IMG/VR virus record: IMGVR_UViG_3300010222_000171
Location: 4,817-68,816 of that record
From: a virus
Reading direction: 5' to 3' (one strand)
DNA length: 64,000 nucleotides
Shown piece by piece: positions 580 to 61,519 of this stretch. The first letter of the stretch is position 1. Each line of letters starts with the position of its first letter. A program made the position numbers and the translations under genes. A model generated the notes under the pieces. It was given only the letters and a program-made list of their open reading frames with translations, made no database searches and was not told the origin of the DNA.

Positions 580-704
580 TCGGGATAACGTTCGACTTTG
601 GAAACTTGAGTCTTATCGCAAGACTTTAGTTCCCGCATCCCGACTCTTTGAGTGTAGCACGTCGGCGCTCAGAGAGGTGGCGGACGGCGTGACACAACCC
701 AACT

Positions 705-10186: not shown

Positions 10187-11184
10187 GCGAAATCCACACC
10201 GACGAATCGATAGCAGGAATAGAACCCGGAACAGAACTGACTGTTTCCGACGAAAAGATGGAAAGGGGCTTGGAATACGTATCAAAGTCCAGAATTAAGC
10301 TATATCGTCAATGTCCATTCAAATTTGCGATGAAATATTGGATGGAAGAACGACCGCCTGGAACGATGGCAACAGAGCGCGGTTCTCGGGTCCACCTTGT
10401 CTTCGAGAGATTCCACGAGAACCTGAAGGAGTACATCGCTGAGAACGGCGATAAGCCCGAGAGGTTCACACCGCTGATGCCTAATACCGGAAACGAAACT
10501 CAGTGGTTGGACTACATCTCAAACTTCTGGAAATTTGAGATGAGGAGATTGCGGGAGACTGATAGAACGTATGACTTCGCTTCTTCGAGGATTCCATCTG
10601 AGCAATTCAGTATGGATGATAGAGCAGTGGTACAGGCATGGGAACCCCTCGAAGTCGAAGCAGAGTTCTGGATGGGAGAACCACCTGATGACTACGACGG
10701 AGATCCCGACTACGTAGACGAGTCCGGCCCACCTGTCGGGGACATCCCTTGGATGGGAAAGGCTGACGTGGTGCTGAACAGTGCCAGCGTTCCCGGTGTT
10801 ACTGGCTCCGGTGTTACCATCCTCGACTACAAAACTGGTGACTGTCCAACTATCAAATACGAGGGAGCGCCGTTCCTTGATGATGTGATGGAAGACGTGA
10901 TGCTCGAAACAGAGTTCTACTCGTGGCTTGCCAGATCAATCTACGACGTAGATGCAGTCGCAATCTATTATCCTCGTGATGACGAACTTGTTATTGGGGA
11001 ACAAGGCGTTCAGGAACGTCGGTTCAAGATTAAGGAAGCCGCTCTCGGGATGCAAGAACTTCCCGAAGAATTGAACGAAAACGGCGAGCCGAACAACTTC
11101 GAACGCGATGAGGGGAATCTCTGCCATTGGGGGAGCGGCAAGTGTTGGTTTTATGACATTTGTGAAAGTGAACAAGGTAAGTAG
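10183..11184 (+). CDS. Cas4/AddB-like PD-(D/E)xK nuclease with Fe-S staple
   Basis: SKSRIKLYRQCPFKF, GKAD, ILDYKTG and C-terminal LCHWGSGKCWFYDIC. Confidence 0.85.
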   Translation: MSEIHTDESIAGIEPGTELTVSDEKMERGLEYVSKSRIKLYRQCPFKFAMKYWMEERPPGTMATERGSRVHLVFERFHENLKEYIAENGDKPERFTPLMPNTGNETQWLDYISNFWKFEMRRLRETDRTYDFASSRIPSEQFSMDDRAVVQAWEPLEVEAEFWMGEPPDDYDGDPDYVDESGPPVGDIPWMGKADVVLNSASVPGVTGSGVTILDYKTGDCPTIKYEGAPFLDDVMEDVMLETEFYSWLARSIYDVDAVAIYYPRDDELVIGEQGVQERRFKIKEAALGMQELPEELNENGEPNNFERDEGNLCHWGSGKCWFYDICESEQGK

Positions 11185-12061: not shown

Positions 12062-12068
12062 TTCATAA

Positions 12069-12093: not shown

Positions 12094-12172
12094 TTTAATC
12101 CAGGGACAAACCCTGGGTGTCCCGAAACCGCCCCCAGTCAGCGAGGCTGCGGCGGCGGGGCATAACCTACCT

Positions 12173-48033: not shown

Positions 48034-48495
48034 ATGAGGCATCTGCCGATGACCACCTTCGGTGGTGACGGTAAGGCACCGGACCGGAGCGGAATTACCC
48101 GAAGCGATGCAGGACGACACAACCTACCAATGTCCGACGAAACCAACGTCGAAGACGTTGCACAGTGCGAAACCACCAACAACGAAGCTGGCACCTCAAA
48201 AGGGTGGAAACAGAGGCTCGAAGAGCTTCCAGAGACGGAACCCGAGGGGCCGACGATCCGAGACGACGAAGCCGAACGGCTTCGGCAGAGCTTGCCGGAC
48301 CTGCCGACCAAAGATGAGGCAAAACTGGGAGAGCTGTTCAAGGTCCCCAAAGGCCAGTTTGAAGGCTGCTCCCTGATCGACAGCGAAACCCCCGCCCTTA
48401 TCGAGTTCCACAGTGAGGCTCGGAAAGGGCCGAAGGGTTCCACCGACCAGGAGGTTCGGGAGGCAATCGAAGCGGTCGAGGGGCGATGGCTATGA
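48034..48495 (+). CDS. hypothetical protein
   Basis: Acidic ORF starting at the promoter motif. Confidence 0.7.
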   Translation: MRHLPMTTFGGDGKAPDRSGITRSDAGRHNLPMSDETNVEDVAQCETTNNEAGTSKGWKQRLEELPETEPEGPTIRDDEAERLRQSLPDLPTKDEAKLGELFKVPKGQFEGCSLIDSETPALIEFHSEARKGPKGSTDQEVREAIEAVEGRWL

Positions 48496-53741: not shown

Positions 53742-53753
53742 AACGAAGGCAAA

Positions 53754-53778
53754 GACTTATTATTCCAGGGATTAAGTC
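53754..53778 (+). promoter_or_regulatory. dyad promoter motif copy upstream of hammerhead A
   Basis: GACTTAT-N11-TTAAGTC. Confidence 0.7.
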
Positions 53779-53784
53779 TTAGAA

Positions 53785-53879
53785 TGGGCGAAAGGCTCTT
53801 GCTTGGAGCCTCGGATCGAGCTGGCCGCCGATCCCGCGAAGGCCCCTTATCGGTTTGGGGTCGGATGATGCCCATGGCC
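53785..53879 (+). ncRNA. type II hammerhead ribozyme A, variant core with inserted hairpin
   Basis: Stem II TGGGC/GCCCA, GAAA, stem III GGCTC/GAGCC, UC site at 53811-12, stem I GGATCG/CGATCC, core C-[insert]-GATGA and a pseudoknot. Confidence 0.6.
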
Positions 53880-53913
53880 CCAGAATGGGACGCAACCTAA
53901 CGGGGAAACAAAA

Positions 53914-54150
53914 ATGAACCAAGAACTACCAGAGAATTTCGGAACTATCGAAAAATCAGATGGAGTGTCAGAGATTACACCCTACATGGGATCATACGCC
54001 GATTTCAGCATCATAATGCGTCGGCCCATGAAGACTGAGATCAGGGTGTACTATCTTCGGAACCTCCGAGAAGACTGGGAATGGGTCGAAGATAGGTACG
54101 ACAAAGAACACGAAGAGGGGTTCATCCTGTTGAAGCGGAAGGCGAACTAA
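53914..54150 (+). CDS. hypothetical protein
   Basis: First ORF after hammerhead A. Confidence 0.7.
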   Translation: MNQELPENFGTIEKSDGVSEITPYMGSYADFSIIMRRPMKTEIRVYYLRNLREDWEWVEDRYDKEHEEGFILLKRKAN

Positions 54151-54518
54151 TGAAAAGTGAAGACACCGCCGAAGAAACAAACCCGGATGACCCCCACTTC
54201 GGGGAGAGCACCCTCGATGGACCAAGGGCCAGCGTATCCTTCTACGTTCGGAGGCCCCTTAACGACTATACCGAACTCGAAGAGGTATTTGAGTTCTACG
54301 TGACTGAACCCTACTATGACCAGGCAGAGCGTAGCGGGGTTCCGGGAGTCCGGTACTATATTACTATGGAAGCAAGAACCGGACGGCCCGGAGTGGATAA
54401 CGAAAAGTTCAAAGACGGAGTAATGCCGATTCACAAAATCCCTGACGAAGTGAAGTACCGAGCGAAGAGGATTCTGGACTTTGTGGAGTTCCCACCTAAC
54501 GGAGAACAAGATGAGTGA
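54150..54518 (+). CDS. hypothetical protein
   Basis: TAATG overlap. Confidence 0.7.
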   Translation: MKSEDTAEETNPDDPHFGESTLDGPRASVSFYVRRPLNDYTELEEVFEFYVTEPYYDQAERSGVPGVRYYITMEARTGRPGVDNEKFKDGVMPIHKIPDEVKYRAKRILDFVEFPPNGEQDE

Positions 54519-54666
54519 CGCTGCTAATCCCATTGGAGACGGCGAAGCAGAGTTCTGTGACAATTGCGGCGAAGCGTATCGGCATAGATCTGTCCTCCCT
54601 GGCGGCATTTGGAACGATTACTGTCCAACCTGTCTTGAAGACTACATGAACCGTGATCCAAAATAG
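54511..54666 (+). CDS. zinc-finger microprotein
   Basis: CDNCG...CPTC. Confidence 0.7.
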   Translation: MSDAANPIGDGEAEFCDNCGEAYRHRSVLPGGIWNDYCPTCLEDYMNRDPK

Positions 54667-54674
54667 CATACACG

Positions 54675-54779
54675 ATGAGTGAATCCTGCAACCACTGTGA
54701 TGCTACATTCAGTGGAATGTTTGCCGAAGAGAAGCTACGAGAACACAATAATAGACACCATTCAACACAAGCACTATGA
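54675..54779 (+). CDS. C2H2-like microprotein (34 aa)
   Basis: CNHC...HNNRHH; ATGA overlap. Confidence 0.55.
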   Translation: MSESCNHCDATFSGMFAEEKLREHNNRHHSTQAL

Positions 54780-55021
54780 CAGATCTTCACCCAACCAGAT
54801 TCTTCGAGGCATCGAGTAATACAATCGAGTACCTCATCGAAGAATGGGCTGATGATGAAGAAGAAAAACTGCTTCGAGAGGCTGGTGAGTTAATCACTGA
54901 AGCTGAAGGAGATATATTTGAGCAAAGAAAATGTCCTGATTGCTCAAAAGTGGTTTTCGGGACAGATGTAAAGGATGCAAATACTCGATTCAAAGATCAC
55001 CAATCAGCAATTCACAAATGA
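54776..55021 (+). CDS. hypothetical protein with C2H2-like C-terminus
   Basis: CPDC...HQSAIH. Confidence 0.65.
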   Translation: MTDLHPTRFFEASSNTIEYLIEEWADDEEEKLLREAGELITEAEGDIFEQRKCPDCSKVVFGTDVKDANTRFKDHQSAIHK

Positions 55022-55221
55022 CAGAAACACCATACGACTTCATCGATACCGAAGCGAACAGTGACGATGAACAAACCGGCGAGGCGCACCCCATGAGTGG
55101 CCCGGCAGGGGGGCATTACCGGAAGAGAGAAGTACAGCGACGGATCGAAATGCTGGAGGAGGAGGAAGATAACCGAGGCTTCCTCGGTCGTGGATTCCAT
55201 GCATTAAAAAATATGCTGTGA
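55018..55221 (+). CDS. hypothetical protein
   Basis: ATGA overlap; acidic product. Confidence 0.6.
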   Translation: MTETPYDFIDTEANSDDEQTGEAHPMSGPAGGHYRKREVQRRIEMLEEEEDNRGFLGRGFHALKNML

Positions 55222-55222
55222 A

Positions 55223-55246
55223 GACTCATTAAAGCAATCCTGAGTC
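55223..55246 (+). promoter_or_regulatory. dyad promoter motif copy before a leaderless gene
   Basis: GACTCAT-N10-CTGAGTC followed by ATG 55247. Confidence 0.7.
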
Positions 55247-55372
55247 ATGAATGAACCAATTGATTACCTCACATTCGAGGAACGGCGCGAAGTTCGGAAC
55301 GCACAGCGCACCATTGCGGCAATGGTGAATCCAACGATGCAGGATGCGGTCAAACTCGTCAACAATGAGTGA
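55247..55372 (+). CDS. 41-aa microprotein
   Basis: Starts at the promoter motif and overlaps the GHKL gene start. Confidence 0.55.
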   Translation: MNEPIDYLTFEERREVRNAQRTIAAMVNPTMQDAVKLVNNE

Positions 55373-58193
55373 AAAAATACAGAAACTCGCAACGGTCGAA
55401 CAGGACTCAGATATTGTACAAGAAGATGATTGGAGCGAAGCCCCGGTTATCAATAACACTGGGAACGCAACTGTTCGTGACTTCGATGCAGCAAGCGAAG
55501 ATCATCCCCTGGTCCAGTATGCCGGAGAGAAGGCACGGAAGACGGACATCTCCGGTGGTGGAGAGTTCGTTTCCGAAGAAATCTACCAGGGCGACGAAGC
55601 GTTCCCAAGAGAGTGGCTACAGAATCACGAAACGGCCTGCATCCGGCGCTGTAAGATGGTCGTTTCACTAAGTGACGAGTATCCCGACGATTGGCTGACT
55701 CAGACCGTCCTCATGGACCCCGAAACGGGTGAGACGGTCGAAGACCCCGAAGATGTAGATGGCAATGCGGCAGCGATGGAAGTACCCCGCCCAATGAACG
55801 AGATCATCGAGGCTGCCCGAAGCCTCGGCTACGATCCGACGATCACTTGGGACGTGTATCTTGACGAGCGGAAAATCATTACCGAAGACAACGGGATCGG
55901 AATGACTCCCAGGGAATTTTGGGAAGTGTTCAAGTCCCCCTTCAGCTCCGGTTCTGGTGTGGATTCTGAAACTGGGGGGAACTTCGGAATCGGCTCTAAC
56001 TCCGTCGAGAAGGCTCATGGAGAAGACGGTGCTGCGAAGGTCACGACGAAAACCCCCCGGCCCGGAAACCACGAAGGTTATCAGGCATATTCATACCGGG
56101 GAGGGGCAACGGCAATTAATGGCGAAGTCCCTGATGGGTTCCACGGAACCCGTTTCGAGATTCCCGTTCGTGAAGGGTTCGACCTGTCCAAGATGCAGCA
56201 TTGGATAGAAAAGTACACCGACAAGCTCCGCGTTCCGGTGTTGTATCGAGAACACGATGCTGGTTCAACGCCGGTCGAAGAAGAATACGAAGAAACGGTT
56301 TTCGTTAAAGACTTCGATGATCCGCCTATTGTCATCGAACGGCCCGGCGAGTTCAGCTTAGTTGCCGGCCCTGATGTGTGTCCCCGAACCAGCTTCCGTG
56401 AACCGGACAATACTAATACCTATTTGGTGTCAATGGAGATTGACCGAAACACGAAGGCGTCCATCTCGACGATGTACGATGTCGTGATCCAGATTCACGA
56501 CGAACAAGGCCGGATCGTGGCAGGCCCTCATCGGGGCTACCATTCCCATAACGGCAAGGTCTACAAGACAGGACAGAACGAAAAACTACTCGACGATCTC
56601 CACGAAGATGACGTTGTATCGCCACAGCCTACTGGAGATCGTGACAGGCTGAAGAAAACCGACGAAAGCTACGACTTTTTCAATTATATTGAAAAGATCG
56701 TCAAGTCGGAAGAGATCAATCAGGTATCTCATGTTGCGGATCGTATGAAGGATGCTGACCACCCCGGCGATGCGATTCGGGGCGAAAAGGGTGACTGGGA
56801 CCTGTTCAGAAAGACCATTAGTGAGAATGGACCAAGACACGCCACTGACCAAAGGAATAGGTTTGGGAATTTTCTAAATGACAGAGATGAGTTCCCCGAC
56901 TTTACTGATAGTGAAATTGATAAAATGTTTTGCCTGTTCGATGAGTTCGAACACTGCTATCAGGGACCCGGTAGTTCCAATCGGAAACGGGGGAGAGAAG
57001 AAAGGACTATTGGTTATATCTTGTCAAGCCTCGATCCCGACGCGATTTACATGGCCGCTTCTACTGGTGGCAACTTTAGTGATAGGTTCCGGGTTATCGA
57101 AAACACATACGATAACCCCGAAGTGGTCGTCATTAACACCGCCAGCAACTACGACACTTACGCCGAAAACTTCGGCTTCAAAGTGCTAAAAGAAGTCCCA
57201 GTGACCCAACCCGATGAGGGCGAGGACCATGACTACAATGTTACAGATAATATTCACGAACGTCATGTGAATAAGGGAAGTAGCTACCAATCAAAGCCTG
57301 ACAGTGTTCTGGATCGGGCACTGAAAATTAGAAACAGTGCCGATAACACGAGTATCGACCTTCGACTTAGCATTGCTGATGCTCAGGAACGGCTGGAAAA
57401 TTATAGTAGCTTCAGCGGTGCTAATTCAAAGAAACTCGTCCTGTTCCCGAGAACTGCTGACGAGAACATCAGCGACCACTACGGAATGGCAAAGTACGCG
57501 GCCATCGCTTCGGTGAACAAGAAAGAGTACGACCAGTTGGCTCACTATGACAATGTAATGACGTACCAGGAGTTCAAAGAGTGGTCACGGTCGGCGCTGA
57601 TTGCCACTACTGACGGGGTAATGACGCCGAAAAAGCTTGTCGAGGATGATCGGATGGTAGTCCTTCTGTACCGGAGGCGTTGTCGGAGTGGCCCCATCGA
57701 GAAAGATGAAGCTCGGTTCCTAATGGACGAGAAAGAAGACCTTCGGAACCTTTACTTGGAAGATATTCGAGATCAAGTACACTGGGCTGATCATCTCGAC
57801 GGCTACGATGGTGGTTGGGACGGCGACGACCGAGGCAACGTTGACGATGCCGATAAGCCCGATATGTTGTTAGCTGTAGCTGGTCCGAAGGTGCTGCGCC
57901 GTGCACACTGGGCTATCCATCAGTTGGACATATCCCGCCGAAGTATCGAAGGTCTTCGGTTGGGGAGAAATCGTATAAAAGAATTACCGATCACGTGGGG
58001 CACTCTCGATGGGTCCCAAAGTAAGTACAAGCTCATGGTTGACACCCCGAACTGGGACAACGACAGTGAAATTTACGAGATGATCCCGACGAACCGCGAC
58101 AAGTTCAAGGCTCAGATGTATTTGGCATTCCATGACATGGGCATCGATCCATCGAACTACGAGAACGAAGAGCTTCGAGAGATGTGTTCCTAA
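55365..58193 (+). CDS. large GHKL (Hsp90/MORC-like) ATPase protein, rIIA-like
   Basis: REWLQN, EDNGIGM, GNFGIG and GTRF GHKL motifs in the N-terminal third. Confidence 0.85.
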   Translation: MSEKIQKLATVEQDSDIVQEDDWSEAPVINNTGNATVRDFDAASEDHPLVQYAGEKARKTDISGGGEFVSEEIYQGDEAFPREWLQNHETACIRRCKMVVSLSDEYPDDWLTQTVLMDPETGETVEDPEDVDGNAAAMEVPRPMNEIIEAARSLGYDPTITWDVYLDERKIITEDNGIGMTPREFWEVFKSPFSSGSGVDSETGGNFGIGSNSVEKAHGEDGAAKVTTKTPRPGNHEGYQAYSYRGGATAINGEVPDGFHGTRFEIPVREGFDLSKMQHWIEKYTDKLRVPVLYREHDAGSTPVEEEYEETVFVKDFDDPPIVIERPGEFSLVAGPDVCPRTSFREPDNTNTYLVSMEIDRNTKASISTMYDVVIQIHDEQGRIVAGPHRGYHSHNGKVYKTGQNEKLLDDLHEDDVVSPQPTGDRDRLKKTDESYDFFNYIEKIVKSEEINQVSHVADRMKDADHPGDAIRGEKGDWDLFRKTISENGPRHATDQRNRFGNFLNDRDEFPDFTDSEIDKMFCLFDEFEHCYQGPGSSNRKRGREERTIGYILSSLDPDAIYMAASTGGNFSDRFRVIENTYDNPEVVVINTASNYDTYAENFGFKVLKEVPVTQPDEGEDHDYNVTDNIHERHVNKGSSYQSKPDSVLDRALKIRNSADNTSIDLRLSIADAQERLENYSSFSGANSKKLVLFPRTADENISDHYGMAKYAAIASVNKKEYDQLAHYDNVMTYQEFKEWSRSALIATTDGVMTPKKLVEDDRMVVLLYRRRCRSGPIEKDEARFLMDEKEDLRNLYLEDIRDQVHWADHLDGYDGGWDGDDRGNVDDADKPDMLLAVAGPKVLRRAHWAIHQLDISRRSIEGLRLGRNRIKELPITWGTLDGSQSKYKLMVDTPNWDNDSEIYEMIPTNRDKFKAQMYLAFHDMGIDPSNYENEELREMCS

Positions 58194-58217
58194 TGTAACA
58201 GTTCGAAACAATGATCC

Positions 58218-58337
58218 ATGAAAATAGTCTCACTACCACCGGCAACTGATCGGGGACCGAACCCTCACGAACGAATCGATTCTGACAATTACATGGATCT
58301 CACAGAACTGGAGGAAACAGACAATGGAGATACTTGA
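58218..58337 (+). CDS. 39-aa microprotein
   Basis: Short acidic ORF between the GHKL gene and the next gene. Confidence 0.4.
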   Translation: MKIVSLPPATDRGPNPHERIDSDNYMDLTELEETDNGDT

Positions 58338-59007
58338 GGAAAATAACACCAATTTCCTGGTACTGACCGACGACGGAAGTACAACGACGAAAACGAAATC
58401 CAGCAATCTGAACCAGCTACTATTCGGCTATGGCTTGTTCGATCTGCTCCAAGAAGGGAGTGAAATCTGGACACAAGAAACCGATAAGGGGGTGTTGCGG
58501 GTTATCCCTGGTAACGATGCCAGGGAGTACACCATCGATCCACCAAGCGTCCCGAATTTAGTTCTCGGAGCGCACCGTAAGACCGATCTCGTAGATGCGC
58601 TGATGGAAGCCTACGAAGCTGAAGGACGGGTAGACCCACAACCGATCATGAACCTCTACGAAGAAGTTCGTGATGGGATGGTCCGTGAAGAAGTGCTGGA
58701 CCCTTTCCACCCCCTTATCGGTTCCAATGTTTCGGTTCGAGAAAATGGCTGGTTCATCAACGGCCATCTCCTACTGACATACGAAGGCGAGTTCTATCAC
58801 TCCGAACACAAAAGTCGGAATCGATCAGGGTCAGTGATCGGAACCGGAACGTCGAACAAGGCCTACGAACAGGCAGTCTCCGAACCAGATGGCGAAATTT
58901 CTCGGTCGATCACTATTGACGGAGAACAGCGACGGCTCACGAACAGTGAGGTTGAGTTCATCACGAAGGCGCTGTGGGCAGTTGAAAATACTCCAGATCG
59001 GCGGTAA
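58324..59007 (+). CDS. hypothetical protein, possible rIIB-like partner
   Basis: GGAGG ribosome-binding site; lies just downstream of the GHKL gene. Confidence 0.7.
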   Translation: MEILEENNTNFLVLTDDGSTTTKTKSSNLNQLLFGYGLFDLLQEGSEIWTQETDKGVLRVIPGNDAREYTIDPPSVPNLVLGAHRKTDLVDALMEAYEAEGRVDPQPIMNLYEEVRDGMVREEVLDPFHPLIGSNVSVRENGWFINGHLLLTYEGEFYHSEHKSRNRSGSVIGTGTSNKAYEQAVSEPDGEISRSITIDGEQRRLTNSEVEFITKALWAVENTPDRR

Positions 59008-59014
59008 GTCATAA

Positions 59015-59039
59015 GATTTAACTTCTCACATCCCGAGTC
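59015..59039 (+). promoter_or_regulatory. dyad promoter motif copy
   Basis: GATTTAA-N11-CCGAGTC. Confidence 0.65.
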
Positions 59040-59059
59040 TTAGGATGAAAAGGCGGTTT

Positions 59060-59100
59060 TGTCCAAGTCGGCGTAGAGGGTTCGATTCCCTCTTGGACAT
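59060..59100 (+). ncRNA. tRNA-like minihelix (7-bp acceptor-like stem plus 5-bp T arm)
   Basis: TGTCCAA-gtcggcgta-GAGGG-TTCGATT-CCCTC-TTGGACA with perfect pairing. Confidence 0.7.
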
Positions 59101-59146
59101 TTAAGCACCTCTCGCGGTGCAATGATACAAGTAGCGGGACACGACC

Positions 59147-60064
59147 ATGATCTACTACGTAGTAGTTGACCGACACGGGGATGAAATAGCCCGGTACGAA
59201 ACGGAATATGGGGCCGCGAACCACATCAAAGATGTTGGGTTTGGCTCCCATCACCTCCACGTCAAGGAGGTTGAACAGGACGACGAAACAGCCGACGATT
59301 CTCAGACCACCATGAGCAACTACGACTTCATCCAAACCGACGACGAAGAGGACGACAACCAAGACAGCGACAGCTTCCAGTCGCAGACCTTCGACTGGGG
59401 CTACGGCGAACACAGCACGGCATCGGGCGACGATCTCGATGTGTTGGGTGGGCAAATTCGGGCCACGATGGACGAACTCGATGAGGGGGTGGACGGGGAG
59501 ATGGTCGCCGTTCTCGAAGACGCCCAGGAGCTTGTCGGGTCCGTTTCGATCAACGACTTCGAGTGCTCCCACCCTGACTGTGGGCTGAGTCACGGTCACG
59601 GCCCCAACAAGCACGACATTCGGAACAGTGTGAACAGTTCGGGGATCGAGGGCTTCAACATCACTGACGAGTTCGCTGACCAAATGGAGTTCGTTGCGAA
59701 CTGCCACTGTGGAGCAAACGAAGCGGGGATGCTGGTTCAGTTCTTCCACTACTTCAACATCCCAATGTTCTCCGACCAAGAAGAGTTCGAAGGGGTGCTG
59801 GAGATGGACGCCGACGTAGTGACGGACATCTACCGGGAAGTCAACGAGAACGGCGTCTCGGTAGCTGCCGCTGTCGCTCGGGTCGCCGTGCAGCGCAGCG
59901 TAGCCGAATCAGAGATCGCTCCCGCTGGCCTTTGGGAAGACCTGGGGGCGTTCATCGAGCGCCGACAGCACGTTGAGGGAGGCGCAAACAGCGCCCCCAT
60001 CGGTCAGGAAACCCAGTCGGTGATCGATTCCCACCGGGAAGCCATCGAAGCTGTGATCCAGTAG
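59147..60064 (+). CDS. acidic hypothetical protein with Cys/His metal-binding motifs
   Basis: CSHPDCGLSHGH and CHCG. Confidence 0.8.
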   Translation: MIYYVVVDRHGDEIARYETEYGAANHIKDVGFGSHHLHVKEVEQDDETADDSQTTMSNYDFIQTDDEEDDNQDSDSFQSQTFDWGYGEHSTASGDDLDVLGGQIRATMDELDEGVDGEMVAVLEDAQELVGSVSINDFECSHPDCGLSHGHGPNKHDIRNSVNSSGIEGFNITDEFADQMEFVANCHCGANEAGMLVQFFHYFNIPMFSDQEEFEGVLEMDADVVTDIYREVNENGVSVAAAVARVAVQRSVAESEIAPAGLWEDLGAFIERRQHVEGGANSAPIGQETQSVIDSHREAIEAVIQ

Positions 60065-60075
60065 TCGGCGGTAAA

Positions 60076-60099
60076 GACTCGTATTCGTTAGGTTGCGTC
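60076..60099 (+). promoter_or_regulatory. dyad promoter motif copy upstream of hammerhead C
   Basis: GACTCGT-N10-TTGCGTC. Confidence 0.65.
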
Positions 60100-60108
60100 T
60101 TTTGAAGC

Positions 60109-60178
60109 GGGCGAAACGCCGGGGATTCCCGGCGTCGGGAGCGAGATGGTCGCCGTTCCCCTGATGCTGCCCATGACT
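60109..60178 (+). ncRNA. type II hammerhead ribozyme C
   Basis: GGGC GAAA CGCCGGG-gatt-CCCGGCG TC GGGAGCG-loop-CGTTCCC CTGATGC T GCCC. Pseudoknot GGTCG/TGACT. Confidence 0.75.
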
Positions 60179-60211
60179 GCGGTGCGGGCTTGGGATGCAA
60201 CCTAATCACAA

Positions 60212-60361
60212 ATGTGTGCTAACGACACCCCTACGACGGTCGAAACGGACGAAACGGTTGAAGGAAAAAGCTACCCAGAAAAAGTACGGGCACAATATAA
60301 TACGACAGACATGGGTGCTATCATGTCAAGATTCTATGAAGCTGTCAGTTGGAGAGAATAA
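60212..60361 (+). CDS. 49-aa microprotein
   Basis: First ORF after hammerhead C. Confidence 0.5.
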   Translation: MCANDTPTTVETDETVEGKSYPEKVRAQYNTTDMGAIMSRFYEAVSWRE

Positions 60362-60367
60362 ATAACT

Positions 60368-60622
60368 ATGACAGTCTCACATCTTGATATGTTCTACGAG
60401 ACACGGGCTTCGACCCATGTCTCACCATCCGCGCCCTCATCGAGTCCAAACACAGAACTAAATTCCACTCCAACTGCGGCGGAGATACGGTTTGCTGACG
60501 GACCGAACCGCTTCATCGATGCAGAAGGGTTCGAAGCTCCAGATGGAAGCGGATTCGAAGTGGCTCGGTTCTTGATTCAGAGGGCGATGATGGACCCAGA
60601 TGCAGTAGTGGTACCTACCTGA
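60368..60622 (+). CDS. hypothetical protein
   Basis: ORF in the early operon. Confidence 0.6.
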   Translation: MTVSHLDMFYETRASTHVSPSAPSSSPNTELNSTPTAAEIRFADGPNRFIDAEGFEAPDGSGFEVARFLIQRAMMDPDAVVVPT

Positions 60623-60672
60623 TCGGTTCGGTCTTGTCGAGAATAGCGGCTACCCCATTCTGAGGTGAACAA

Positions 60673-61356
60673 ATGACCCCCGAGTTACAACCCTGGATAC
60701 AGAATCACTATCCAGACTACGTTTCGGCGTTGCGTCGAGTGGAAAAGACACGAACATTGTTGCTCTCGGGGAGTCCCGAGAAAGCAGGTGAAATTCTGAG
60801 GAAGGCATACGTTTTCGCCGTTCTCAGTATCAGGACTGGCCTCGAACGCCACGAAAAAGGATTCACCCAGTGGTCTTCGGGTATGGACATCCGAGAAGCT
60901 GCGAAGGAAACGGTCTATCCTAACCAGAAAGCTGACTGGATGGAAGAAACGTTCCGATCAGTCGATTGGAATCAGTTCGGTGAGGCGGTCCAGTGTCACT
61001 TCGAGAAGGGGCGACACGAAACAGTCCTCGATCTCGTTGTTGACAAACTCAAAGGAACTTCTTACCGGAAGGGTGGCTTCGTACTCTCAATGTCCGGTGG
61101 CTACGAGTTCATGTGCATTGATTCGCACGTTGCTGACTTCGCCGGACTGGAGGACCGTACAGGAAATTCCCTCAGCTTCAACTCAGCGGGGGGTTATCTG
61201 AACCAGTGCAGCAAAGTAGTTGCGAAGCTCCCGAACCCGCTGAACCTTCCGCCGTTCCTACTGCAATGGGCAATCTATGATTGGCAGCGAAGCGAACACG
61301 CTCGCCACATGGCTTTCTACCGTGAGGTGCTTCCAGAAATTCTCTTTGAAGGATAA
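60673..61356 (+). CDS. HhH-GPD-like DNA glycosylase family protein
   Basis: GAGGTG ribosome-binding site. KLKGTSYRKGGF hairpin-like motif followed by CIDSHV. Confidence 0.55.
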   Translation: MTPELQPWIQNHYPDYVSALRRVEKTRTLLLSGSPEKAGEILRKAYVFAVLSIRTGLERHEKGFTQWSSGMDIREAAKETVYPNQKADWMEETFRSVDWNQFGEAVQCHFEKGRHETVLDLVVDKLKGTSYRKGGFVLSMSGGYEFMCIDSHVADFAGLEDRTGNSLSFNSAGGYLNQCSKVVAKLPNPLNLPPFLLQWAIYDWQRSEHARHMAFYREVLPEILFEG

Positions 61357-61381
61357 GATTTAAGTTTGCAGAATCCGAGTC
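61357..61381 (+). promoter_or_regulatory. dyad promoter motif copy upstream of hammerhead B
   Basis: GATTTAA-N11-CCGAGTC. Confidence 0.65.
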
Positions 61382-61388
61382 TTAGTAA

Positions 61389-61497
61389 TGGGCGAAAGGC
61401 TGTATCATAATCCTCAACTCTTATTTAAATGAGTTGTGTCCTGTGTTACAGTCTCAGTTCGGGAGTAGCCATCCGAATCCTGAAGATGCCCACGGCT
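61389..61497 (+). ncRNA. type II hammerhead ribozyme B with a 42-nt stem III insert
   Basis: TGGGC GAAA GGCTGTA...TACAGTC TC A-GTTCGG-loop-CCGAAT-C CTGAAGA T GCCCA. Pseudoknot AGCC/GGCT. Confidence 0.8.
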
Positions 61498-61519
61498 CCA
61501 CGGGAAATCAACAATAACT

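What the first reader, a model, noticed from the sequence alone, without database searches (positions are those of the whole stretch)
53754..61500. Candidate system: viral promoters coupled directly to self-cleaving hammerhead ribozymes
Seen: three intergenic elements (53785-53879, 60109-60178, 61389-61497) start 7-10 nt downstream of the same dyad promoter motif. All share the order GGGC-GAAA, stem III, UC, stem I with a 10-nt loop, a CUGANGA-like core, an extra U, GCCC and a tail. The stem sequences differ between copies but keep pairing. A loop I/3'-tail pseudoknot covaries (GGCCG/UGGCC, GGUCG/UGACU, AGCC/GGCU). Established: this is the type II hammerhead architecture, and an extra nucleotide between A9 and G10.1 occurs in some natural hammerheads. 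Type II hammerheads are known from environmental and phage DNA, so the class is not new. Inference: this virus systematically trims the 5' ends of several early mRNAs, giving 5'-OH ends that could evade 5'-phosphate-dependent exonucleases, and/or releases short 2',3'-cyclic-phosphate RNAs. I know of no description of such a promoter-ribozyme module in a halovirus.
Basis: partly seen in the sequence, partly recalled or inferred. Interest (0 to 1): 0.9.

Follow-up and report, generated by a model that had tools for sequence, protein, structure and literature searches.

The report
Promoter-fused hammerhead ribozymes in a halovirus
Three operons of this uncultured haloarchaeal virus begin with a self-cleaving type II hammerhead ribozyme placed directly after the viral promoter; hammerheads are already known in haloviruses, but the repeated promoter fusion and a variant with a hairpin inside the catalytic core have not been described.

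Summary
Across 17 family members from 8 viruses, 97% of the proposed pairs form, against 79% in shuffles. The loop I/3'-tail pseudoknot pairs in 100% of cells and covaries. About 18 of 24 family members start 28-39 nt after the promoter box AAGAYT, against 3.6% of random positions. This box is the intergenic-repeat promoter of haloviruses HF1 and HF2.

The novelty claim is overstated. Perreault et al. 2011 described type II hammerheads, their pseudoknot and saltern variants, including one in HF1/HF2 whose cleavage site matches a mapped early-transcript 5' end. RefSeq annotates that ribozyme in HF2.

Three things appear new:
- There are 3-5 copies per genome at syntenic operon starts in an uncultured Hafunaviridae-like clade.
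- The ribozymes are fused to the promoter.
- There are core variants. E1 carries a 28-nt hairpin insertion that is conserved and covarying in four viruses. E2 has A9 changed to C.

Self-cleavage and all downstream function remain untested, and no RNA data were available. My verdict is a new variant of a known kind, of moderate interest.

The parts
53752..53780 (+). Dyad promoter P1 (AAGACTTA-N13-TAAGTCTT). The left arm is the putative BRE/TATA and starts 34 nt before the ribozyme.
   Evidence: It is the same motif as the annotated HF2 intergenic repeats that carry promoters.
53786..53879 (+). Hammerhead E1, a four-way-junction variant. Stem II is 53786-89/53870-73 and GAAA is 53790-93. Stem III runs to U 53811, and C17 is 53812 with cleavage predicted after it. 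Stem I is 53813-18/53829-34. The pseudoknot is 53823-26 with 53876-79.
   Evidence: 26 bits, E 7e-5; the minimum-free-energy fold is the four-way junction.
53836..53863 (+). Insertion inside the E1 core, between C 53835 and GAUGA 53864-68. It reads G-CG-AA, then a 6-bp hairpin GGCCCC/GGGGUC with a 10-nt loop, then G.
   Evidence: The same insertion occurs at the syntenic site in L128:7227, L129:8360 and G001 (L273), and its hairpin pairs covary.
53887..53899 (+). Conserved leader motif GGGACGCAACCUA, lying between the ribozyme and the ATG at 53914.
60074..60101 (+). Dyad promoter P2 (AAGACTCG...GCGTCTT). Its left arm starts 35 nt before the ribozyme.
60109..60179 (+). Hammerhead E2. Stem II is 60109-12/60170-73. 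C17 is 60136, with cleavage predicted after it. Stem I is 60137-43/60155-61. The core CUGAUGC is 60162-68, with C instead of A9 at 60168, and the extra U is 60169. The pseudoknot is 60148-51 with 60176-79.
   Evidence: RF02276 at 31.1 bits; 68.2 bits.
61355..61383 (+). Dyad promoter P3 (AAGATTTAAG...GAGTCTT). It overlaps the stop codon of the upstream ORF.
61390..61497 (+). Hammerhead E3. It has a canonical CUGAAGA core (61480-86), an extra U at 61487 and stem II at 61390-93/61488-91. C17 is 61455, with cleavage predicted after it. Stem III carries a roughly 45-nt AU-rich insertion with its own hairpin. There is an A.C mismatch at the base of stem I. The pseudoknot is AGCC/GGCU, with its 3' strand at 61494-97.
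   Evidence: 42.3 bits, E 2.3e-9; z-score -3.7.

Best explanation
E1, E2 and E3 belong to a halovirus subfamily of type II hammerhead ribozymes. Its features are a 4-bp stem II, a 7-bp stem I with a 10-nt loop, a 4-bp pseudoknot between loop I and the 3' tail, and usually an extra U between A9 and G10.1.

In this uncultured Hafunaviridae-like clade the ribozyme is a cassette. It sits between the standard viral intergenic-repeat promoter and a conserved leader motif that precedes the first gene of an operon.

Shown here:
- family membership
- structure supported by covariation
- synteny
- fixed promoter spacing

Inferred:
- Transcription starts at or within a few nucleotides of the first G of the ribozyme.
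- The nascent RNA folds and cuts itself after C17 (53812, 60136, 61455).
- The cut releases a 5' piece of about 27, 28 or 66 nt with a 2',3'-cyclic phosphate. It also severs any read-through RNA from the upstream operon.
- The mRNA is left with a uniform 5'-OH end capped by the stem I hairpin.

The module would therefore work as a natural 5'-end-defining insulator, comparable to the synthetic RiboJ part. The core variants probably give each operon its own cleavage rate under the high Mg2+ and K+ of the host cytoplasm. These variants are the hairpin insertion in E1 and the C at position 9 in E2.
For: - Independent model R2 finds exactly these three sites in the genome.
- On 17 elements from 8 viruses, 97.0% of cells pair against 79.3% in shuffles, and against 40-57% when partners are slid. 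There are 65 double-sided changes against 16.7 expected. The pseudoknot pairs in 100% of cells with two covarying positions. GAAA and U16.1 are invariant.
- One relative (L133:7980) passes Rfam's own threshold for Hammerhead_II at 38.4 bits.
- The elements occupy syntenic operon starts. The E2 site is present in all 8 genomes examined.
- About 18 of 24 elements have the AAGAYT box 28-39 nt upstream, mostly 34-35 nt, against 3.6% of random positions. That box matches the annotated HF2 intergenic repeats, which the literature says have promoter activity.
- Upstream ORFs end 0-10 nt before the promoters, and I saw no oligo-T terminator in those short gaps (only a T4 run, inside P2's right arm), so read-through is plausible.
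- Precedent: the HF1/HF2 hammerhead lies at the start of an early operon, and the mapped 5' end is within 3 nt of its cleavage site. A saltern variant with a core insertion is active at 75 mM Mg2+ or more.
Against: - No cleavage or transcript data exist for this virus, and no RNA run was listed.
- E2 is the only one of 17 aligned family members with C at position 9. Its positional homologue in G001 has also lost A9.
- E1's CUGA box is interrupted, and position 4 is G, U, C or U in the four insertion variants.
- E3 has an A.C mismatch at the base of stem I.
- Promoter spacing ranges from 28 to 39 nt. In some relatives the start site could fall inside stem II, in which case only read-through RNA would be cut.
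- Six of 24 family members, and the HF2 copy, have no intergenic-repeat promoter in front. The fusion is therefore common but not obligatory.
- 5'-OH protection from decay in haloarchaea is an assumption.
Confidence: 0.68

Rival explanations
1. Some copies, E1 and E2 above all, are hammerhead-derived structured leaders that no longer cleave. They would be kept for another role, such as a 5' stabilising fold or a binding site for a viral or host protein. Only canonical copies such as E3 would still be ribozymes.
For: E2 has C at position 9. Its homologues at the same site are also damaged: CUGACG-U-GCCC in G001 and a degenerate core in L132:15020. In E1-type elements the core is interrupted and position 4 is not conserved, yet all helices and the pseudoknot are maintained in four viruses. 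HHmeta, which has only a 2-nt core insertion, is nearly inactive at 15 mM Mg2+.
Against: The invariant residues of these variants are exactly the catalytic ones: GAAA, U-C, GAUGA and the stem II closing pairs. The tertiary pseudoknot is kept, and its known role is to speed catalysis. A leader kept only for structure would not need them. High intracellular Mg2+ and K+ may compensate.
Confidence: 0.2
2. The ribozymes act only on read-through transcripts. The promoter's own transcripts would start inside stem II or further downstream and lack a complete ribozyme. Cleavage would then separate operons and give the upstream mRNA a hairpin plus cyclic-phosphate 3' end, rather than trimming promoter-initiated mRNAs.
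For: Spacing from the promoter box to the ribozyme falls to 28-30 nt in five relatives. Promoters abut upstream stop codons with no evident terminator in between. Some family members, and the HF2 copy, lie directly behind a CDS with no intergenic-repeat promoter. Multiple hammerheads flanking genes in prophages are known.
Against: In the window itself the spacing is 34-35 nt. This puts the expected start, roughly 25-28 nt from the TATA centre, at about the first G. Type II hammerheads work with stem II of only 1-2 bp, so losing one or two 5' nucleotides would not disable them.
Confidence: 0.15
3. Paired cleavage at consecutive ribozymes excises an RNA with 5'-OH and 2',3'-cyclic-phosphate ends, for example E2 to E3 (60137-61455, 1,319 nt, three ORFs). 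Host RtcB, or the ribozyme itself, would then ligate it into a circular mRNA.
For: E2 and E3 are in the same orientation and 1.3 kb apart, with no evident terminator between them. The ends produced are the RtcB substrate (general knowledge). Joining them would rebuild a complete type II hammerhead. Other viruses (G003, G005) carry 3-4 tandem copies 250-400 nt apart.
Against: This is purely inferential, with no RNA data. E3 has its own promoter, which makes a dedicated unit more likely. E1 has no partner within 6 kb.
Confidence: 0.06
4. The resemblance to hammerheads is a chance match of short motifs in GC-rich intergenic hairpins.
For: GGGCGAAA alone is not enriched in the window: 5 copies against 2.6 expected. 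Two of the three elements are invisible to Rfam.
Against: Independent model E-values range from 7e-5 to 1.5e-16 with no other hits. Covariation is strong and includes the pseudoknot. The positions are syntenic in 8 viruses.
Confidence: 0.01

Closest known systems
HHphage, the type II hammerhead of haloviruses HF1 and HF2 (Perreault et al. 2011, PMC3088659; annotated as an ncRNA at 10292-10359 in NC_003345)
   Same: The virus family is the same (Hafunaviridae). Both have type II topology, a 10-nt loop I (AGUUGGUCAU), a GGUC/GACC pseudoknot and a position just upstream of the first gene of an early operon. Both also deviate from the consensus core near C3. My model R1 scores it at 29.3 bits.
   Different: HF2 has one copy, lying 2 nt after a CDS with no intergenic-repeat promoter annotated in front. 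The window virus has three copies and its relatives up to four or five in the stretch sampled, mostly fused to the promoter. Most copies here have an extra U before stem II and a 4-bp GGGC/GCCC stem II. E1 carries a 28-nt hairpin insertion where HHphage has a 2-3-nt one.
Rfam RF02276 Hammerhead_II, the type II hammerhead with loop I/3'-tail pseudoknot
   Same: The core boxes are the same (GAAA, UH, CUGANGA). [quoted passage not shown]
   Different: Only E2 is detected, and below threshold (31.1 against 37 bits). E1 and E3 are not reported even at E up to 10. The subfamily differs in its loop I size, the extra U, and long insertions in stem III (E3) and in the core (E1).
HHmeta, the saltern metagenome hammerhead with the G2a/C2b core insertion (Perreault et al. 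2011)
   Same: It comes from a hypersaline viral source and has an insertion in the C3 region of the core. It shows that such variants can be active at high Mg2+.
   Different: The HHmeta insertion is 2 nt. The E1-type insertion is 23-28 nt, forms its own conserved helix and creates a four-way junction. Its activity is unknown.
RiboJ, a synthetic ribozyme insulator placed between promoter and 5' UTR (recalled from Lou et al. 2012; not checked here)
   Same: The layout is the same: promoter, self-cleaving hammerhead, leader, then gene. In both, cleavage removes promoter-dependent 5' sequence and leaves a 5'-OH followed by a hairpin.
   Different: RiboJ is an engineered type III-derived part used in bacteria. 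This is a functional analogy only, with no homology implied and no natural counterpart found in the searched literature.

Membership tests
Type II hammerhead ribozyme (RF02276) | The conserved G12-A13-A14-A15.1 box (GAAA) immediately 3' of the stem II strand. | tested here: met
   GGGC-GAAA is present in E1, E2 and E3. GAAA is invariant in all 17 aligned family members.
Type II hammerhead ribozyme (RF02276) | Cleavage-site context: an A15.1-U16.1 pair followed by H17, which must not be G. | tested here: met
   All three elements have U-C. The A-U pair is present in 17 of 17 members, and H17 is C or U.
Type II hammerhead ribozyme (RF02276) | A contiguous C3-U4-G5-A6-N7-G8-A9 box between stems I and II. 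| tested here: inconclusive
   E3 has CUGAAGA and meets it. E2 has CUGAUGC, with C at position 9, so one position fails. E1 has C-G-[26 nt]-GAUGA, which is interrupted and lacks U4. Most relatives have CUGAYGA.
Type II hammerhead ribozyme (RF02276) | Three helices with stems I and III capped and stem II open, supported by covariation. | tested here: met
   97% of cells pair, and 12 pairs show double-sided changes. Stems I and III show 5 of 7 and 5 of 6 covarying pairs. The minimum-free-energy folds agree.
Type II hammerhead ribozyme (RF02276) | A pseudoknot of 4 or more bp between loop I and the tail 3' of stem II. | tested here: met
   Four pairs form in 100% of cells. Position 1 shows AU, GC, GU and CG, and position 3 shows UA, CG and AU. 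The same holds in the four E1-type elements.
Type II hammerhead ribozyme (RF02276) | A score at or above Rfam's gathering threshold of 37 bits. | tested here: not met
   E2 scores 31.1 bits, and E1 and E3 are not reported. A homologous element in a relative passes at 38.4 bits. Custom family models link all of them.
Type II hammerhead ribozyme (RF02276) | Site-specific self-cleavage giving 2',3'-cyclic-phosphate and 5'-OH ends. | not testable with these tools
   No RNA run was listed. This needs an in vitro or in vivo assay.
Saltern or halovirus hammerhead variants (HHphage/HHmeta, Perreault 2011) | Hypersaline viral origin, and a position just upstream of the first gene of an early operon. 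| tested here: met
   The virus is Hafunaviridae-like: its HSP90-like protein is 37-38% identical to that of Mincapvirus isolates. The source is a rock metagenome. The predicted cleavage sites lie 64-101 nt upstream of the first ATG of gene clusters.
Saltern or halovirus hammerhead variants (HHphage/HHmeta, Perreault 2011) | A short (2-nt) insertion between stem I and C3. | tested here: inconclusive
   E2 and E3 have no such insertion. E1 has a 28-nt insertion in the same region, and L128:18091 has one extra U (CUUGAUGA). The register relative to positions 2a/2b could not be fixed without the published figure.

The most novel reading that the evidence does not exclude
An uncultured clade of haloarchaeal myoviruses has turned the hammerhead into a standard promoter-proximal part, so that several operons are born as ribozymes and mature to 5'-OH mRNAs. 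At one syntenic site the ribozyme has evolved a conserved four-way-junction form, with a helix inserted into the catalytic core between C3/N4 and G5. If that form still cleaves, or cleaves only when the extra helix is bound or refolded, it would be a new active hammerhead core architecture and a natural gated ribozyme.
Probability: 0.3. Interest if true: 0.75.

Novelty: new variant of a known kind. Interest (0 to 1): 0.5.

Why it matters
Hammerheads are widespread in phage and prophage DNA, but their function there is still largely unknown. Here the context is unusually informative. The ribozyme is fixed at the transcription start of several syntenic operons, between a promoter type with reported activity and a conserved leader. 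That predicts a concrete, testable job: defining the 5' end and insulating operons.

The family also supplies natural experiments on the catalytic core. It includes a hairpin inserted in the uridine-turn region that has been kept in four viruses, loss of A9 at one site in two lineages, and an extra U at A9/G10.1. These variants bear on how much of the consensus is needed at molar salt.

If the elements are active, they would be ready-made insulator parts for haloarchaeal genetics.

Tried and rejected
- **Rfam at gathering threshold** found nothing in the window. In E-value mode it found only E2.
- **Nucleotide searches of the phage collection** were unproductive. Megablast found no relative. 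A blastn search with a relative's ribozyme matched only the leader motif in Mincapvirus isolates.
- **Protein-seeded scans of IMG/VR** with the 305-aa and 949-aa proteins found nothing. Relatives came instead from the protein database and contig look-ups. One look-up, for P0002, failed.
- **Loose DNA patterns** saturated with chance matches: GGGCGAAA..GATGCCCA and GAAG..CGGATGATGCC in IMG/VR, and the two-gap pattern in metagenomes. After screening, the metagenome scan only re-found the G001 copy.
- **Tighter patterns** found G001, G003, G004, G005 and the L130 and L131 viruses.
- **MAFFT** misaligned E3 and E1, so I used model-guided alignment and a hand parse.
- **E1 alternative pairing.** I considered an E1 fold in which stem II pairs with the first GCCC of the insertion, which is what the models align to. 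I rejected it because L128, L129 and G001 have ACACC or GCACC there.
- **Literature on A9 substitutions** gave nothing usable.
- **Sequencing runs.** One DNA run and no RNA run were listed.
- **Cultured isolates.** HSTV-2, HCTV-6, HRTV-11, HRTV-7, HRTV-25 and HGTV-1 show no member of this family at E up to 0.01.

Full report
**What is there**

The window is bases 4817-68816 of a 72,184-bp IMG/VR virus record, classed as a provirus and estimated 96% complete. Its 949-aa HSP90-like protein is 37-38% identical to that of HSTV-2, HRTV-7 and other Mincapvirus isolates of the Hafunaviridae. The only public run listed as holding the DNA is a rock metagenome.

The order is GGGC-GAAA, a hairpin (stem III), U-C, a hairpin with a 10-nt loop (stem I), a CUGANGA-like stretch, a U, GCCC, and a tail complementary to four bases of loop I. 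Folded alone, E2 and E3 give the three-way junction and E1 gives a four-way junction as the minimum-free-energy structure.

**Is it more than chance?**

Rfam alone is weak here. There are no hits at gathering score. At E up to 10, only E2 is found, as RF02276 Hammerhead_II at 31.1 bits against a threshold of 37.

I therefore collected relatives through homologues of the HSP90-like protein and fetched their contigs. These contain many elements of the same design, most with a canonical CUGAYGA core. One of them passes Rfam's own threshold at 38.4 bits.

A first covariance model (R1) found 21 elements in the window plus seven relatives. A second model, R2, was built from 16 elements of relatives only. 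The scores are 68.2 bits (E 1.5e-16) for E2, 42.3 bits (E 2.3e-9) for E3 and 26 bits (E 7e-5) for E1. The next hit has E 0.85.

On the 17 best elements (A4):

| Measure | Observed | Control |
|---|---|---|
| Cells forming a standard pair | 97.0% | 79.3% in shuffles; 40-57% with partners slid |
| Cells with double-sided changes | 65 | 16.7 expected |
| Pseudoknot (4 bp) cells paired | 100% | not computed separately |

Two pseudoknot positions covary: AU/GC/GU/CG at one and UA/CG/AU at the other. GAAA and the A15.1-U16.1 pair are invariant, and H17 is C or U. This is a genuine, structurally constrained type II hammerhead family, and the three window elements belong to it.

**Deviations in the three copies**

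- **E3** has a canonical core (CUGAAGA). It also has an A.C mismatch at the base of stem I and a roughly 45-nt AU-rich insertion in stem III.
- **E2** is the only one of the 17 aligned members with C at position 9 (60168). Its positional homologue in the closest complete relative, G001 (65% HSP90 identity), reads CUGACG-U-GCCC, so A9 is also lost. In L130 the same site is canonical.
- **E1** has 28 nt (53836-53863) inserted between C 53835 and GAUGA.

The same E1 design occurs at the syntenic site in three other viruses: L128:7227, L129:8360 and G001 (L273). The design is C-N-YG-AA, a 6-bp helix, G-GAUGA-U-GCCC. The inserted helix covaries (GGCCCC/GGGGUC, GACACC/GGUGUC, GGCACC/GGUGUC). All other hammerhead parts, including the pseudoknot, are kept. 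Two further relatives, L130 and L131, have a canonical hammerhead at that site.

The register of the insertion is ambiguous. It could lie between position 4 and G5, at N7, or 5' of C3, and in no reading is U4 conserved. One relative element (L128:18091) has a single extra U in the same region (CUUGAUGA). The HF2 ribozyme also has extra nucleotides there.

**Promoter coupling**

The dyad in front of each element is AAGACTTA...TAAGTCTT. It has the same sequence as the intergenic repeats annotated in HF2 as carrying promoter motifs. Dyall-Smith et al. 2020 state that their promoter activity has been confirmed.

The window has about a dozen such dyads, all on the + strand and intergenic, and three are followed by a hammerhead. 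Across the family, about 18 of 24 hammerheads have the left-arm box AAGAYT starting 28-39 nt upstream, most often 34-35 nt. The figure for random positions is 3.6%. Two of the 18 (E3 and L128:7227) carry AAGATT, which the script's regex did not match, and I counted them by eye. Two regex hits lying in coding sequence were discounted.

If the left arm is the BRE/TATA, this spacing puts the expected start site at about the first G of the ribozyme. This is an inference from usual archaeal promoter geometry, not a measurement.

Upstream ORFs end 0-10 nt before the dyads. I saw no T-tract in those short gaps; the one T4 run lies inside P2's right arm. Read-through from upstream is therefore plausible.

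The elements occupy four syntenic operon starts:

- Site A holds E1.
- Site B lies in front of the HSP90-like gene and is empty in this virus.
- Site C holds E2 and is occupied in all eight genomes.
- Site D is the E3-like site.

**Mechanism proposed**

The RNA starts at or near the ribozyme and folds co-transcriptionally. It cuts after C17 at 53812, 60136 and 61455. This removes the triphosphate 5' piece of about 27, 28 or 66 nt, along with any upstream read-through RNA. The mRNA is left with a 5'-OH followed by the stem I hairpin and a leader of 101, 75 or 64 nt.

The module would thus define a uniform 5' end and insulate operons from one another, as the synthetic RiboJ part does. The core variants would set site-specific rates at high intracellular Mg2+ and K+.

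Shown here are family membership, structure, synteny and promoter spacing. Inferred are the start site, cleavage in vivo and every downstream consequence. No RNA run was listed.

**What is known already**

Perreault et al. 2011 (PMC3088659) described natural type II hammerheads, their loop I/3'-tail pseudoknot and multiple hammerheads flanking prophage genes. They also described 'hammerhead variants from high-salt environments':

- HHmeta has a 2-nt insertion near C3. It is almost inactive at 15 mM Mg2+ and reaches about 0.13 per min at 300 mM.
- HHphage occurs in HF1 and HF2, 13 nt upstream of the helicase start codon. The 5' end of the early polycistronic transcript was mapped within 3 nt of its cleavage site.

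RefSeq annotates this ribozyme in HF2 at 10292-10359, 2 nt after a CDS and with no intergenic repeat in front. My model R1 scores it at 29.3 bits.

Hammerheads in haloviruses, at the 5' end of early transcripts and with unusual cores, are therefore not new. I did not find three things in the searched literature:

- several copies per genome fused to the standard viral promoter
- the conserved helix insertion in the core
- the recurrent loss of A9 at one site

Cultured Mincapvirus isolates (HSTV-2, HCTV-6, HRTV-11, HRTV-7), Laminvirus HRTV-25 and HGTV-1 show no member of this family. The arrangement therefore belongs to an uncultured clade. That clade comprises at least nine genomes: the window, G001, L128-L134 and G004.

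**Verdict**

These are new members of a known ribozyme class in a new arrangement, with one structurally new variant. Interest is moderate at 0.5. It would rise if the E1-type four-way junction proves active or gated.

Noticed in passing
window 59013-59105: Another dyad promoter (59013-59041) is followed by a tRNA-like top half: an acceptor-like stem GTCCAAG/TTGGACA and a T arm GAGGG-TTCGATT-CCCTC. ARAGORN calls no tRNA. In HF2, two intergenic-repeat promoters are followed by real tRNAs. Promoter-proximal RNA-processing signals, whether ribozyme, tRNA or tRNA mimic, may therefore be a general theme in this virus family. HF1-group papers describe a partial tRNA as attP.
   Followed up: partly
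window 689-701, 12157-12169, 48110-48125, 53887-53899, 60192-60204; also L128-L131 and HSTV-2 (L003 about 5620): A conserved leader motif GGGAC(A/G)CAACCU(U/A)(C/A)C lies 5-25 nt before the first ATG of promoter-driven operons, with or without a hammerhead. It is also the only part that blastn matches in cultured Mincapvirus isolates. It is not complementary to the usual anti-Shine-Dalgarno sequence, and its function is unknown. In the window alone the degenerate pattern is not statistically enriched (5 copies against 2.7 expected).
   Followed up: partly
window 61398-61446: The stem III insertion of E3 is AU-rich and contains TTATTTAAAT within its own CAACTC/GAGTTG hairpin. This is a TATA-like sequence about 25-30 nt upstream of the cleavage site. 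An internal promoter there would give uncleavable transcripts starting near the same 5' end. This is speculative.
   Followed up: no
G003 (L267, L272, L276, L277) and G005 (L268, L271, L274): Two other IMG/VR virus fragments carry 3-4 type II hammerheads in tandem, 250-400 nt apart. They share the GGGCGAAA...CUGAUGA-U-GCCC design with the extra U. They have a short loop I and a different pseudoknot (CAUCAG tail), and each precedes a small ORF.
   Followed up: partly
window 7717, 12067, 48009, 49023, 49995, 51790, 55223: Other copies of the dyad promoter are followed by different GC-rich structured leaders. At 12067 there is a CCAGGG/CCCTGG hairpin and then CCCGAAACCGCC..., which gives a weak Rfam hammerhead hit of 10 bits. 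None is a hammerhead by R1 or R2.
   Followed up: partly
L135 (HF2) 10250-10292: Upstream of the annotated HF2 hammerhead, inside the preceding CDS, is GAGATAATTGAC, about 30 nt before the ribozyme start. This may be a TATA-like box, so the HF2 copy could also be promoter-proximal although no intergenic repeat is annotated there.
   Followed up: no
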